DNA from: Mayamaea pseudoterrestris
Lineage: Eukaryota
Length of the DNA stretch: 64,000 bases
Direction: 5' to 3'
Assembly (NCBI GenBank): GCA_027923505.1
Contig: BROI01000003.1
Span: forward strand, 62,001-126,000
Shown: piece by piece, positions 1 to 5,313 of the stretch
Position numbering within the stretch: position 1 is the first letter of the stretch
Layout: each line of letters begins with the position of its first letter
Position numbers and translations under genes: made by a program
Notes under the pieces: generated by a model
Databases searched by the model: none
Seen by the model: the letters and a program-made list of their open reading frames with translations, nothing else
Told to the model about the DNA's origin: nothing

Positions 1-1689
1 AACTTGATTGTCATTGTGACGATGACTCTCTTCCTTGAGCCTCTTCGTCTCCTCCCTTTGCCGCTTCAAAGCATCCTCGACTCGATGCAGCTGACGTGTC
101 TTTTCCTCCAACTCTCTGTGTAATCGCCTTGGATCTGACGGCATGGTAATGGCCGGAGTCGGGCTTCTAGTTGCATCAACGCTTGAATCTACACTGCTAG
201 CATCTGTCTCGACAAAGCTCGCTTCTGGCATTGTCTCGTGCAAAAGTTGCAAACTTGCTTTCATCGCGGAGATGGAATCGTCCAAAGCAGCACCTACCCT
301 TTCCAAGGCAGAAGCGTCACCACCATCAGATGCTTTCATGTCACACGCTTGAGCATGCACATCCCTCACGTTCTTCTCCAGACGAGCCGTCAATGCCAGC
401 TGGCGCTGCTGCTTGCTAGTAGTACTGCCTCCAATACTATGCATCGGAACGTTGCGCTGCAAGTCACGCAACTGCGTCGCCAAGGAATCAAGTCGCTTCT
501 GCTTGTCCGCCGCATCCACCGTGAGCGAATGTATCGCATCGTCCTTGGCTTTGAGCTTGCTTCGAAGGTCAGCCGCGAGAGAACCGCTCGCTTGCTCCAA
601 GGATGTGATAATCATCTTGGCGTTCTCAAGCGCCAAGCTCTTTTCCTCGAGCTCCTTGGCGAGCTTGGTAGTTTCGTCTGTTGCATTATGAACGCTATCA
701 TCCTCGTTGCCAGGCAGCTTGCCCTTCGCCTGGCTTGAGCTGCTGGAAGCAACATGGGTTGATTGAGCCTCTTGCTGCTTGACATCAGTAGCAAAATTAT
801 TGTTCTTCGCCTTTTCGAAAACACTCATGCACGTTTCCCACAATTGTCGCTCCTGACGGTTCAATCCATAGGGCATTTTCACGTAATGACTAGATCCAGC
901 CGCCGCCTGCAGCGCCTGCGTCATGCGCGCCAGCGAGTTGGTCGGATATTGATGTGGGGACGAGTCATCGTCCACGCCGCCGTCACCCAGTGAACTAACG
1001 TCGTCCGGTGGTTCCACGTTGGTTGTCTTGCTTTTAACGCGACTCAACGAGTTTGCTGCTGATGCACCACTCGCTCCACCAACATTGTTATTCGCCGCAT
1101 ACTGCCCATGGCTCAAGTTGCTTGGCAGCGACGAGCTGGACACTTTGCGCGCCAGCTGTCCGCGCGGAGGCGTGTACGCACTGCTCGACGGCGGTCGTTG
1201 CCACCAGCGGGGCGCCAGCTTGGGCGGCGTGATTAGAGCAGCAGGTGCAACGTTGTGAGACTGCAGCAAGTCATCCGGCAGTGTCAATAGTGCGGGGACT
1301 TTGTTGCTGCTATCTGCAGCAACTGCGGCGGCTTCCATTGTTTGATTGACGCGAGGCGACAGCCGGGGTCGGGGAGCATCATCCACGTCCCAGGTGCGCA
1401 TGGACAAGACATGTATCCCCGTAGGCGGAACTGGTAGAGTCTTGCTTGAGTGACTTGCTGCATCTTCCAATGCCATGGTGACTGGAACCATGGTAGTCTT
1501 GTTGTTGATTTTGCCATCGCTAGCCGTTGAAGGCAGCTGCGCTGGCGACGTCGGAAGCTCGGGCGCACATTCATCGTCTAGCGACACTTCCACTCGATCT
1601 GCATTGCCTCTTCCTCCTTTGAACGTGGCGAGACGCCGGTTCCGTCGATCCCGGGCCGTTGCAACGAGAGAAGCGCTGCTGCTGCTCAT
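1..1689 (-). CDS. Hypothetical coiled-coil protein (3' end runs off the left edge of the window)
   Basis: Hand translation gives an uninterrupted minus-strand frame from ATG at 1689 (MSSSSASLVATARDRRNRRLATF...) to base 1. It has a Ser/Pro-rich N-terminus followed by heptad-like segments (KLAKELEEKSLALENAKMIITSLEQ; LHRELEEKTRQLHRVEDALKRQREETKRLKEE). It is absent from the ORF track because no stop codon lies in the window. Confidence 0.8.
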   Translation of the reverse strand, partial: MSSSSASLVATARDRRNRRLATFKGGRGNADRVEVSLDDECAPELPTSPAQLPSTASDGKINNKTTMVPVTMALEDAASHSSKTLPVPPTGIHVLSMRTWDVDDAPRPRLSPRVNQTMEAAAVAADSSNKVPALLTLPDDLLQSHNVAPAALITPPKLAPRWWQRPPSSSAYTPPRGQLARKVSSSSLPSNLSHGQYAANNNVGGASGASAANSLSRVKSKTTNVEPPDDVSSLGDGGVDDDSSPHQYPTNSLARMTQALQAAAGSSHYVKMPYGLNRQERQLWETCMSVFEKAKNNNFATDVKQQEAQSTHVASSSSSQAKGKLPGNEDDSVHNATDETTKLAKELEEKSLALENAKMIITSLEQASGSLAADLRSKLKAKDDAIHSLTVDAADKQKRLDSLATQLRDLQRNVPMHSIGGSTTSKQQRQLALTARLEKNVRDVHAQACDMKASDGGDASALERVGAALDDSISAMKASLQLLHETMPEASFVETDASSVDSSVDATRSPTPAITMPSDPRRLHRELEEKTRQLHRVEDALKRQREETKRLKEESHRHNDNQV

Positions 1690-2195
1690 TTGCAAAACGC
1701 GAAGAATGCAGGCAGCAGAAATGAGGCTGAATTGCGTAAATCTTTTTTCAGCAGTCCATAAAGCTTGCTGCTCGCATTGTTTTTAAACTATATTATATTT
1801 GAGAGGTTTGGATCGACGCAGTCCTTGGAGTTTGCCTGCCGAGTCGCTGCAACAAGCAACAGCAAGACGAATGCATGTGCATCATCGTCGTCGCGCCGTT
1901 TGCAACGCATTCGGGCGACGAGCAGACGATCTAAAAGGATGTCGCAACGGTGAAAGCTTGGCGCGCCGGTGACGACATCCGTGTCAATCCGCACGCAACC
2001 ACGTTAGCTACCGAAAGCTGTAGTCTCACTGACCCCTAGGGTCCAGTGAATAGAAAGTTTCTCGTGTCCGTGTGTCCGTCGATGACGCTTCTAAACTACG
2101 ACAATGGAACTTCAACATGACGAAGCGCTCCGAATGCTAAATGTCAATAAGAATTCTTTGGTCATTGCATCCGCCAAGTTAGTCAATCGTCAATG

Positions 2196-2287
2196 AACCA
2201 CTCTTACACCATCACTCAGACGGCCAAATACAGCCTGAAATTGGTCGGATGGCAACCACACAAAGACAATTACAAAGCGGTTTGAAT
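2196..2287 (+). repeat. ~92-bp segment duplicated at ~3494-3585 inside the element
   Basis: aaccactcttacaccatcactcagacggccaaatacagcctgaaattggtcggatggcaaccacacaaagacaatta... recurs at ~3494 with only a few substitutions. Confidence 0.9.
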
Positions 2288-2412
2288 AAGGATGAAGATA
2301 ACAATATGCTGTAAAAGTTACAGAATGGCACACCTTCAATTTGTGACCATGCTGCCTTCATCAGATGTCCATAGATTGATGTATATAATGGAGATTTTAT
2401 AAGATTTACATA

Positions 2413-3932
2413 GGAACAGTCTTCTGGAAAGCCAACTTGTCATCAAGGACAGCTGTAGCATCAACCACCACACCTTTGTGGTTGTCTCCCAGCACTTAAC
2501 CTAGCAGCTTCCCATTAAGTGTGCCATCAGGTGACCCAAGCGCCAAGCCCAGTGCGTCACCTAGCGCAGGACCCAGTCTCCTTCCCAGTGCCGCATCAAG
2601 TTTGTCCTCCTCTGTGGCTCCCAGTTTGATTCCAGCACTTTCACTATAGCAGCTTGTCATCAAGTGGGCCATTGAGCAACCCAAGTGCCAAGCCCAGTGC
2701 GTCACCTAGTGCTGGAACCAGTCTTCTGGAAAGCCAACTTGTCAGCAAGGACAGCTGTAGCATCAACCACCACACCTTTGTGGTTGTCTCCCAGCACTCA
2801 ACCTAGCAGCTTCCCATTAAGTGTGCCATCAAGTGACCCAAGCGTCAAGCCCAGTGCGTCACCTAGCGCAGGACCCAGTCTCCTTCCCAGTGCCGCATCA
2901 AGTTTGTCCTCCTCTGTGGCTCCCGGTTTGATTCCAGCACTCTGACTATAGCAGCTTGTCATCAAGTGGGCCATTGAGCAACCCAAGTGCCAAGCCCAGT
3001 GCGTCACCTAGTGCTGGAACCAGTCTCCTGGAAAGCCAACTTGTCATCAAGGACAGCTGGAGCATCAACCACCACACCTTTGTGGTTGTCTCCCAGCACT
3101 CAACCTAGCAGCTTCCCATTAAGTGTGCCATCAAGTGACCCAAGCGCCAAGCCCAGTGCGTCACCTAGCGCAGGACCCAGTCTCCTTCCCAGTGCAGCAT
3201 CAAGCCTGCCATCCTTTGTGGCTCCAAGTCTGTCCCCAGCACTCACTTCAGCAGCATGCCACCAAGTGTGCCATCAAGTGACCCAAGTGCCAAGCCCAGT
3301 GTGTCACCTGGCATAGGATCTACAATAGTCTCCTTCACAGTGCCGCATCTAGCCTGCCATCCTTTGTGGCTCCAAGTCTGTCCCCAGCACTCACTTCAGC
3401 AGCTTGACATTAAGTGTGCCATTAAGTGTGCCATCAAGTGACCCAAGTGCCAAGCCCAGTGTGTCACCTGGCATAGGACCTACAGTAGTATCCAACCGCT
3501 CTTACACCATCACTCAGACAGCCAAATACAGCCTGAAATTGGTCGGATGGCAACCACACAAAGACAATTAGAAAGCGATTTGAATTGCAGGATGCCACCA
3601 AGTGTGCCATCAAGTGACCCAAGTGCCAAGCCCAGTGTGTCACCTGGCATAGGATCTACAGTAGTCTCCTTCCCAGTGCCGCATCTAGCCTGCCATTCTT
3701 TGTGGCTCCAAGTCTGTCCCCTGCACTCACTTCAGCAGCTTGCCCTTAAGTGTGCCATCAAGTGACCCAAGTGCCAAGACCAGTGTGTCACCTGGCATAG
3801 GACCTACAGTAGTCTCCTTCCCAGTGCAGCATCAAGCCTGCCATCCTTTGTGGCTCCAAGTCTGTCTTCAGCACTCACTTCAGCAGCATGCCACCAAGTG
3901 TGCCATCAAGTGACCAAGCGCCAAGCCCAGTC
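2413..3932 (+). repeat. Tandem array of ~143-157 bp monomers; first part organised as a 302-bp dimer (~2.6 copies)
   Basis: Monomer anchor AAGTGTGCCATC/AAGTGGGCCATT at 2517, 2662, 2819, 2964, 3121, 3264, 3412/3424, 3600, 3748 and 3896. Near-identical ORFs 2496-2705/2798-3007 and 2685/2987 are offset by exactly 302 bp. An underlying 12-bp period translates as P-S-x-x. Confidence 0.95.
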
Positions 3933-5313
3933 TGTTTTGTATGCTCCACACCAACAAGACAGACAAGTTATGAGTTTGTTTACCATGTTTTGACGAGTTC
4001 TATTGCCCGATCGCGCCTTCCCGGCCCCCCGCCCCCGGAGAAGGGGGGGTCAGTGCCACGGACCGTTAGGTCCCCTTGTTTGGCTACACATTGGATCAAC
4101 GCTGCAAAGAGTACAATAATTGGTTACCTACGGCAAGTTGCGGGGGGCAAACTTGTATGCTTGGCATAAGCTTAAACTAGCAGACCAACAAGAATATGTG
4201 CATATCTGTTATTCCAACCATCAATAATGATTCTGCATTCTGTGGACTTACAATTACTCCAGTAGCCAGTAATAGATGTTGCATTGCCAGCAGCGTTTGG
4301 ACAATAGTGTGTTCCAAAGCAAGGCATTAAAGGTGAAGCATATATATAGTGTGACCATCCATCTTTTCTACCAGCATAGTATCTAAATGTTCTTTCATTG
4401 CATGATAGTATTGCACAAGCACATCTTTCCTGCTGGGCTGGCATGGCTACAGTAGCTAAAATCACATGGCAGTGGCCACCGCTGTGCACGAAGGATTAGT
4501 CGCACCGGTTCTCCAAAGGAGGAATTGCGCAAGTTCGTCCTTCTGTGGGATCTAACTCGGTCTAGAATGACGATACAGAGAATCTGAGCATACCATCATC
4601 TACGTTAATCAACGAAGAATGCAATGGTGCGAAATCTCCACATACATCGGGGATTTGATCGTGCAGGGACGATTCTTGTAAAATCACTCAAATCACCTTG
4701 ATAGAAACACTGCAACAACTTTGGCTACAACTTTAAGACCAGGCTAGTACTCGTACATTATATCAAGTATATATATAATGGTCTATTGCGCTCGTTTCAG
4801 CCAAAAGCATGCATGTTAAGGTCGTCGCGTCGACGATTGAAGATTCGACCAATTTGCACCTTGATCAATTGGAAGCGACTCCCTCCGTCAGTTTTGGTCC
4901 CGCGGCAATTTTTCCAACGGAATCATATTCTTTGCTTCCTTGTGGTTCTCATGACATCTTGCTGGTTGCAATGCAATGCCTCCTTGGTCCCGCAATTCGA
5001 GCTTGAAAATGGCGATGCCATGAAAATCGACGTAAAAACCCGGAGACCAAGGAACCGCGCTTTTTAGCATGGGATGCGGCACGACCCAGTTCAATCCAGT
5101 CCCGTGATCACCCGCTCGCGCGGGTTAGAGGAAGAGCGGGGGTTCCCCCCGCAATAATATAGAGTTCTTATAGCAGACATGTGTATGCTATAAGCGTGTC
5201 AAGTGTTCGCCTTGGCAACTTGTGGCCCAATCCTTTCATGAACTTTCTCAGAATCACACTTTTCGACGCACCAAGTGGCGAAGATTTCCACATACCGGAA
5301 GCATGTTATCCGT

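What the first reader, a model, noticed from the sequence alone, without database searches (positions are those of the whole stretch)
2025..4080. Apparently complete DINE-1/HINE-type non-autonomous Helentron in a diatom-like genome
Seen in sequence: 10-bp subterminal inverted repeats (CACTGACCCC 2027-2036, GGGGTCAGTG 4046-4055); a partial inverted copy beside the 5' repeat forming a hairpin (2027-2048); a GTCC-type microsatellite (2064-2080); central tandem repeats; a stem-loop 4 nt after the 3' repeat (GGACC-GTTA-GGTCC 4060-4073); a CTTGTT end; and flanks that rejoin as gtagt|tggc with no target-site duplication. Established knowledge: this order of parts and TT insertion define Drosophila DINE-1 and other Helentron-associated elements, which are described mainly from animals. 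Inference: a rolling-circle element family with the same anatomy has been active in this stramenopile, and an autonomous Rep-helicase partner should exist, or have existed, in the genome.
Basis: partly seen in the sequence, partly recalled or inferred. Interest (0 to 1): 0.8.

Follow-up and report, generated by a model that had tools for sequence, protein, structure and literature searches.

The report
Rolling-circle transposon family in a diatom
This 2-kb stretch is a complete, non-coding copy of a small jumping-DNA family with the hairpin-ended build of Helitron2-type rolling-circle transposons, a kind already reported from diatoms, so it is a clean but ordinary new member.

Summary
All listed parts are present and the ends are a real, dispersed family: 15 matches to the 3' end and 10 5' ends in the 30.6-Mb genome; 7 loci (6 independent) carry both ends in the same order, 682-2759 bp apart, with different interiors and no target duplication. 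True limits are 2026-4079, not 2025-4080. CACTA is refuted: 24 conserved bases follow the 3' repeat. It is a non-autonomous HLE2 (Helitron2/HINE-like) element. 'Helentron' in the strict sense is not shown: none of the 4 Rep-helicase loci found has an endonuclease hit, and none carries these ends, so the partner is missing. TT insertion is unproven (no empty site). The 'microsatellite' is only 2-3 loose GTCN units. The host looks like a diatom, and HELIANO already lists HLE2 in 2 of 2 diatoms. The central repeats match an in-frame Pro/Ser-rich repeat elsewhere in the genome. A second HLE2 family lies 36 bp away and does have an intact autonomous partner. This scan noted similar elements before in other genomes and in this one.

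The parts
2026..4079 (+). Whole non-autonomous HLE2-type element, 2054 bp counting both boundary Ts
   Evidence: Copies share sequence from T2026 to T4079 and diverge outside
2026..2026 (+). Invariant 5' boundary T (element or target, unresolved)
   Evidence: T in 8 of 8 independent 5' ends; base before it A 5, T 2, C 1
2027..2036 (+). 5' asymmetric (subterminal) inverted repeat
   Evidence: 100% complementary to 4046-4055; first 9 bases invariant in 7 of 8 5' ends
2026..2049 (+). 5' hairpin: the 5' repeat pairs with a partial inverted copy at 2039-2049
   Evidence: -7.3 kcal/mol, z -2.82; the second subfamily extends the stem by 7 inserted bases and still folds, z -3.29
2064..2080 (+). Short degenerate GTCN tract (not a real microsatellite array)
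   Evidence: GTCC at 2066-2069 and 2074-2077; 2-3 GTC words at this position in 8 of 8 5' ends, no chance control run
2196..2287 (+). 92-nt piece of the left unique region, repeated at 3494-3585
   Evidence: 96% identical direct repeat; also repeated inside the C6 copy
2413..3309 (+). Central tandem array, 302-bp higher-order unit x3
   Evidence: TRF score 1552, 93% matches
3087..3935 (+). Central tandem array, ~148-bp unit x5.5; frame-broken relative of a 144-bp Pro/Ser-rich coding-type repeat
   Evidence: TRF; about 80% identical to a ~9-kb array on C14 that reads open for 2229 codons, 57% Pro+Ser; longest stop-free run in the element's repeats is 112 codons
4046..4055 (+). 3' subterminal inverted repeat, 24 nt from the end
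4060..4073 (+). 3' stem-loop; 4-bp core stem with a GTNA loop
   Evidence: 51 of 52 cells paired in 13 ends, no compensatory change; loop position 3 shows all four bases
4074..4079 (+). Conserved 3' tail and invariant boundary T
   Evidence: 12 of 13 independent 3' ends finish in ..CTTGT; next base T 5, C 5, A 2 in those 12

Best explanation
A full-length non-autonomous HLE2 (Helitron2/HINE-like) rolling-circle transposon. SHOWN: a dispersed family keeps only two short ends (5' repeat folded in a hairpin; 3' repeat, small stem-loop, fixed tail), inserts without target duplication with a T at each boundary, and carries exchangeable non-coding interiors, mostly tandem arrays. INFERRED from known HLE biology: a Y2 HUH Rep fused to a PIF1 helicase, supplied in trans, nicks one strand at the 5' end, unwinds and displaces the strand while the host resynthesises the donor, stops at the 3' repeat/stem-loop, and joins the single strand (probably through a circle) into a new site next to a T. 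The interior is passive cargo, so arrays grow, shrink and swap, and gene pieces are picked up. The cognate Rep-helicase copy is not in the searched assembly (lost, on the other haplotype, in a gap, or below search sensitivity); the genome's Rep-helicases are endonuclease-less HLE2 types.
For: Both ends co-occur in order at 7 loci, 6 independent. Sharp limits. Longest flank duplication 0-2 nt, all within T runs or single bases, in 6 of 6 copies. 5' repeat 0-1 nt and 3' repeat 24 nt from the ends match the Helitron2 definition of 0-2 and about 20-30 bp (PMC3627910). Same ends around unrelated interiors (subfamily A Pro/Ser-type repeats; subfamily B other repeats; C1 with a DDE_Tnp_4-like piece), as in oyster Cg_HINE (PMC7492417). 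The 5' hairpin survives a 7-base insertion; position 10 of the repeat pair changes C-G to G-C between subfamilies, one event. All 4 Rep loci carry DUF6570, the HLE2 marker of PMC11417382; 3 have open frames with HUH and YxxxYxxK motifs. An unrelated family with the same anatomy 36 bp away shares both ends with the C12 Rep-helicase element, showing that this anatomy goes with HLE2 transposases in this genome.
Against: No Rep-helicase with these ends: no end-pattern hit near the 4 loci, and tblastn of 3 Rep-helicases over 705,001 fetched bases in 29 regions hit only the 4 Rep loci themselves. No empty site. No compensatory change in the 3' stem and no folding signal there. One of 13 3' ends (C4) lacks the terminal T and tail. 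7 3' ends and 3 5' ends have no partner within the 15-20 kb read.
Confidence: 0.86

Rival explanations
1. Strict Helentron derivative: same mechanism, but the missing partner carries an apurinic/apyrimidinic endonuclease and inserts at TT.
For: Full DINE-1/HINE layout including a GTCN tract after the 5' hairpin and central repeats (PMC4067079, PMC7492417); a T at both boundaries.
Against: No endonuclease family hit in the 4 Rep-helicase frames; the C12 element ends about 100 bp after its stop codon. HELIANO finds the endonuclease almost only in one HLE2 subgroup.
Confidence: 0.06
2. Non-autonomous derivative of a cut-and-paste DDE transposon: CACTA/EnSpm (ends CACTG..CAGTG) or a PIF/Harbinger-like element whose transposase remnant survives in the C1 copy.
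For: The repeats begin CACTG like CACTA termini (recalled). The C1 copy holds a 130-codon frame whose features match DDE_Tnp_4 clusters (score 0.97, family on 35% of members), with 78% and 74% relatives on C2 and C20.
Against: 24 conserved bases follow the 3' repeat in 12 of 13 ends, and no 2-3 bp duplication flanks CACTG..CAGTG in the copies tested. The DDE-like piece was seen in 1 of 7 two-ended copies, internal, and has no Pfam hit at E<=0.1. The genome-wide end patterns have no hit on C2 or C20; the DNA around those two relatives was not read.
Confidence: 0.04
3. Not a transposon: copies spread by segmental duplication or by recombination among dispersed satellite arrays, the ends riding along.
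For: Three copies (C3:441284, C14:888132, C7:61539) share flanks at 98-99% and are one event; the central repeat family occurs at many loci without these ends.
Against: The other copies have unrelated flanks that break at the same base on both sides, and the same ends enclose unrelated interiors.
Confidence: 0.03

Closest known systems
Non-autonomous Helitron2 / HLE2 elements (Bao and Jurka 2013, PMC3627910; HELIANO, PMC11417382)
   Same: Short asymmetric inverted repeats, 5' one at the end and folded into a hairpin, 3' one about 24 nt inside and followed by a stem-loop; starts at T; no TSD; more 3' than 5' ends; HLE2 already tabulated for two diatoms (Nitzschia sp. 11, Epithemia pelagica 8).
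   Different: New end sequences; no cognate autonomous copy found; target rule unresolved.
DINE-1 and HINE elements of Drosophila, mite, Culex (Thomas et al. 2014, PMC4067079)
   Same: Order of parts: subTIR, partial inverted repeat, short GTCN tract, central repeats, subTIR, stem-loop; T at both sides.
   Different: Repeat 9-10 bp rather than 12-15; about 15 copies; no endonuclease-bearing Helentron partner found; TT target not shown.
Cg_HINE of the Pacific oyster (PMC7492417)
   Same: Shared flanking modules around interchangeable 140-180-bp satellite-like monomers; one mismatch between the repeats is common; short GTCY/GTCC tract.
   Different: Here the subfamily A monomer is homologous to an in-frame Pro/Ser-rich repeat of a host gene-like frame.
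FoHeli of Fusarium oxysporum (PMC5148889)
   Same: HLE2 group with ATIRs, hairpins, a 5' TC start and the same doubt about who owns the boundary T; joined-end circles were detected there.
   Different: FoHeli ends were confirmed by empty sites and linked to autonomous copies; neither is available here.

Membership tests
HLE2 / Helitron2 non-autonomous element | Short asymmetric inverted repeats, 5' one 0-2 bp and 3' one about 20-30 bp from the ends | tested here: met
   0-1 bp and 24 bp; 10/10 match in subfamily A, 9/10 in C12 and C1 (definition)
HLE2 / Helitron2 non-autonomous element | 5' hairpin using the 5' repeat | tested here: met
   z -2.82 and -3.29 in two subfamilies; kept through a 7-base insertion
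HLE2 / Helitron2 non-autonomous element | 3' stem-loop right after the 3' repeat | tested here: met
   4-bp stem paired in 51 of 52 cells, loop base free; but no covariation and no energy signal
HLE2 / Helitron2 non-autonomous element | Dispersed copies with sharp shared ends and no TSD | tested here: met
   6 independent two-ended copies, longest duplication 0-2 nt; inferred from flanks, not from empty sites
HLE2 / Helitron2 non-autonomous element | Insertion at T^T or T^(T/C) | tested here: inconclusive
   T at both limits fits T^T, T^(T/C) (10 of 12) or N^T (A 5 of 8); no empty site
HLE2 / Helitron2 non-autonomous element | Ends shared with an autonomous HLE2 Rep-helicase element | tested here: inconclusive
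   4 DUF6570-bearing Rep loci exist, none with these ends; searches are lower bounds on one assembly
Helentron (strict) / HINE | Partner Rep-helicase carries an apurinic/apyrimidinic endonuclease | tested here: not met
   No such Pfam hit in the 4 frames at E<=0.01; cognate partner unknown
Helentron (strict) / HINE | Microsatellite after the 5' module and central tandem repeats | tested here: inconclusive
   Central repeats clear; microsatellite only 2-3 loose GTCN units, no control
Canonical Helitron (HLE1) | 5' TC, 3' hairpin plus CTRR, no inverted repeats | tested here: not met
   TC start is present, but the end is not CTRR and inverted repeats are present
CACTA/EnSpm | Terminal repeats at the very ends with 2-3 bp TSD | tested here: not met
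   24 conserved nt beyond the 3' repeat; no TSD
HLE (any) | Transposition by an HUH Rep-helicase via single strand or circle | not testable with these tools
   Needs joined-end PCR or a transposition assay

The most novel reading that the evidence does not exclude
The family is an orphan that is still copied by a non-cognate Rep-helicase which reads hairpin shape, the boundary T and the GTCN tract rather than end sequence, and in doing so it shuttles a Pro/Ser-rich coding repeat between a surface-protein-like gene and dispersed satellite arrays. Not excluded because near-identical ends exist at unrelated sites (119 of 120 and 59 of 60 bases) while none of the 4 Rep-helicase loci found has these ends.
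Probability: 0.1. Interest if true: 0.62.

Novelty: new member of a known kind. Interest (0 to 1): 0.3.

Why it matters
It gives a base-exact description of HLE2 non-autonomous elements in a diatom, where I found them reported only as table counts, and shows the fly/oyster HINE layout (even a short GTCN tract at the same place) in a stramenopile. HLE2 transposition has been little tested by experiment; the neighbouring family with its compact 5.6-kb, single-frame autonomous copy on C12 is a better test system than this orphan family. As a finding on its own it changes no view of transposon biology.

Tried and rejected
Empty site: Logan contigs of 4 runs laid on 1000-5200 showed no joint skipping the element among the 15 joints shown (21 more not shown; no contig spans the stretch), so no verdict; flanks of 7 two-ended copies blasted against fetched DNA, and one genome search with the C3:441284 left flank, found only co-duplicated filled sites or relatives that diverge about 130 bp before the junction. 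Partner: PF14214 and PF20209 gave the same 4 loci, PF05970 only 2 of them; a de novo end finder recovered the window element as control but gave no convincing ends for C5, C8 or C25 and missed the true C12 ends, so it is insensitive. Two exact-pattern scans of JGI metagenomes found 0. Rfam: 0 matches in 1900-5300. The C4:346670 hit is an unrelated tandem repeat and was dropped. CACTA rejected. Replitron considered: direct terminal repeats, none detected in diatoms (PMC10288648 passages). The head-to-tail junction of the neighbour family has one T but fits both target models if it is a nested insertion. The surroundings of the two DDE-like relatives on C2 and C20 were not read.

Full report
Observation. 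Every listed part is in the sequence: inverted repeats at 2027-2036 and 4046-4055, a partial inverted copy at 2039-2049, a stem-loop at 4060-4073, and tandem arrays at 2413-3309 (302 bp x3.0) and 3087-3935 (148 bp x5.5). The 5' end folds well (z -2.82, 2 of 200 shuffles as good); the 3' region does not stand out (z -0.84). Within the window the 10-mer alone is at chance level. The microsatellite is two GTCC words in 17 nt.

Family. The window lies at G000:C3:62001-126000 in a 30.6-Mb, 41-contig assembly. A 3'-end pattern gave 15 matches and a 5'-end pattern 9, with 0 for the reversed controls; a variant 5' end at C14:731900 came, making 10. After merging a tandem duplication of the last 573 bp on C29 and three copies that share their flanks at 98-99%, there are 13 independent 3' ends and 8 independent 5' ends. 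These are lower bounds. Seven loci (6 independent) have both ends in order: window 2054 bp, C11 2716, C29 2759, C12 1898, C1 1567, and the C3/C14 pair 682. Seven 3' ends have no 5' end within 19 kb and three 5' ends no 3' end within the 18-27 kb read. One hit was an unrelated repeat and was dropped.

Limits and target. Homology starts at a T (window 2026) in 8 of 8 and stops at a T (4079) in 12 of 13; the C4 end differs in its last bases. The longest duplication between flanks is 0-2 nt under any assignment of the two Ts in 6 of 6 copies, and none flanks the CACTG..CAGTG core, so CACTA fails. Which T belongs to the target is open. Both: TT by construction. Right one only: the target is N^T with N = A 5, T 2, C 1. 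Left one only: T^(T/C) in 10 of 12, the rule given for Helitron2 in PMC13085455 (passage). No empty site was found.

What the ends keep. Two subfamilies differ in the 5' hairpin: subfamily B inserts 7 bases that extend the stem and still folds (z -3.29). The 3' stem pairs in 51 of 52 cells while the third loop base takes all four values, but there is no compensatory change, so this is conservation only. The window's 5' 120 bases match C11 at 119 of 120 and its last 60 match C6 at 59 of 60; subfamily B ends are 77-83% identical. Copying was therefore fairly recent; current activity is not shown.

Interior. The same ends enclose unrelated interiors. The subfamily A monomer belongs to a wide family (262 matches from 39 of 55 candidates scored), including a ~9-kb array on C14 about 80% identical that reads open for 2229 codons at 57% Pro+Ser, followed by a frame ending in a hydrophobic, membrane-anchor-like stretch (Pfam only sub-threshold PT and TMEM52 hits). 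In the element the longest open run is 112 codons. None of the 6 other arrays read had these ends nearby. The direction of exchange is unknown. The C1 copy holds a 130-codon frame that resembles DDE_Tnp_4 by language-model features (0.97) but has no Pfam hit; I read it as cargo.

Partner. PF14214 and PF20209 each found the same 4 loci (C5, C8, C12, C25). Three have uninterrupted frames of 1931, 1823 and 2373 codons with DUF6570, Rep and PIF1 domains, an HUH motif and YxxxYxxK; C8 is a truncated relative of C5. DUF6570 marks HLE2 in PMC11417382 (passages). No endonuclease domain was hit. None has this family's ends within the 30 kb scanned around each, the genome-wide patterns do not hit near them, and tblastn over 705,001 fetched bases found no Rep-helicase remnant beside any copy. 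The C12 element instead shares both ends with a second family whose copy lies at window 4116-5154 on the minus strand, 36 bp from this element. That family has the same anatomy, so in this genome the anatomy is tied to an HLE2 transposase, though not for this family.

Host. Named hits of a window gene are diatoms, then Parmales; the one named relative among 13 hits of the C12 Rep-helicase is from a diatom.

Mechanism. Shown: dispersed copies, fixed ends, no duplication, free interior. Inferred from HLE biology (PMC3627910, PMC5148889, PMC10288648; passages): a Y2 HUH Rep-helicase in trans nicks at the 5' end, displaces one strand, terminates at the 3' repeat and stem-loop, and joins the strand or a circle next to a T. 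The excess of 3' ends echoes the 3' over-abundance described for Chlamydomonas elements, but my two patterns differ in stringency. Confidence 0.86.

Comparison and novelty. It works like, and meets the structural tests of, a non-autonomous Helitron2/HLE2; the target rule and the link to a partner are inconclusive; the strict Helentron test (endonuclease) is not met. HELIANO (PMC11417382: passages, section 21, supplement rows) lists HLE2 in 173 of 404 genomes and in 2 of 2 diatoms, although its main text never says 'diatom'. Thomas et al. (PMC4067079: passages, section 10, supplement search) name algae and oomycetes but no diatom. The oyster paper (PMC7492417: passages) describes the same layout. 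Searches for helentron+diatom, helitron2/stramenopile, helentron/subTIR/HLE2, helitron+diatom genome, helitron+diatoms+RepHel and diatom+non-autonomous helitron (listings only unless named above) showed no anatomical description of a diatom HINE; Repbase, subscription journals and HELIANO's element sequences were not seen and may hold one. Earlier notes of this scan report the same kind of element in two other genomes and in this one. Verdict: real, well classified, a new member of a known kind; interest 0.3.

Noticed in passing
window 4116-5154, minus strand: A second, unrelated 1039-bp HLE2-type non-autonomous element lies 3' end to 3' end with this one, 36 bp away; 14 other loci matched. 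Both ends match the ~5.6-kb C12:213351-207749 element, which holds one 1823-codon Rep-helicase frame: a compact autonomous partner. The base before its first T is A in 10 of 12 5' ends.
   Followed up: partly
G000:C6:712526-718283 (L013/L014): The C6 family copy is interrupted by a 5.76-kb LTR retrotransposon with identical LTRs (329 of 329) and a 5-bp target duplication, and lacks its first ~130 bp.
   Followed up: partly
G000:C14:100854-112423 (L165/L166): Very long Pro/Ser-rich repeat frame (48-residue unit) ending in a hydrophobic anchor-like stretch; mucin-like gene or a satellite that happens to read open. A few breaks in the array may be assembly errors.
   Followed up: partly
L022:3641-4033, minus (G000:C1:603640-604032): DDE_Tnp_4-like transposase fragment inside the C1 copy, with 78% and 74% relatives on C2 and C20.
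   Followed up: partly
G000:C29:170880-171453: The last 573 bp of the C29 copy, including the whole 3' end, are tandemly duplicated; the junction falls at a T inside the central repeat.
   Followed up: no
G000:C3:441284, C14:888132, C7:61539: One 682-bp insertion was triplicated with its flanks (98-99%), beside Copia-like sequence; the C7 copy has lost the 3' end.
   Followed up: partly
L035:8453-9421, minus; L038:1545-8663, minus: An MBD-like gene sits just upstream of the C5 Rep-helicase, and the C25 Rep-helicase ends in a Ulp1-type (C48) protease domain. Ends of the C5, C8 and C25 elements were not defined.
   Followed up: no
window 2033-2041, 4064-4069, 5135-5153: Several terminal hairpins of both families have short G..A loops (GTNA, GAA, GTA), which may be a shape signal on single-stranded DNA; inference only.
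   Followed up: no
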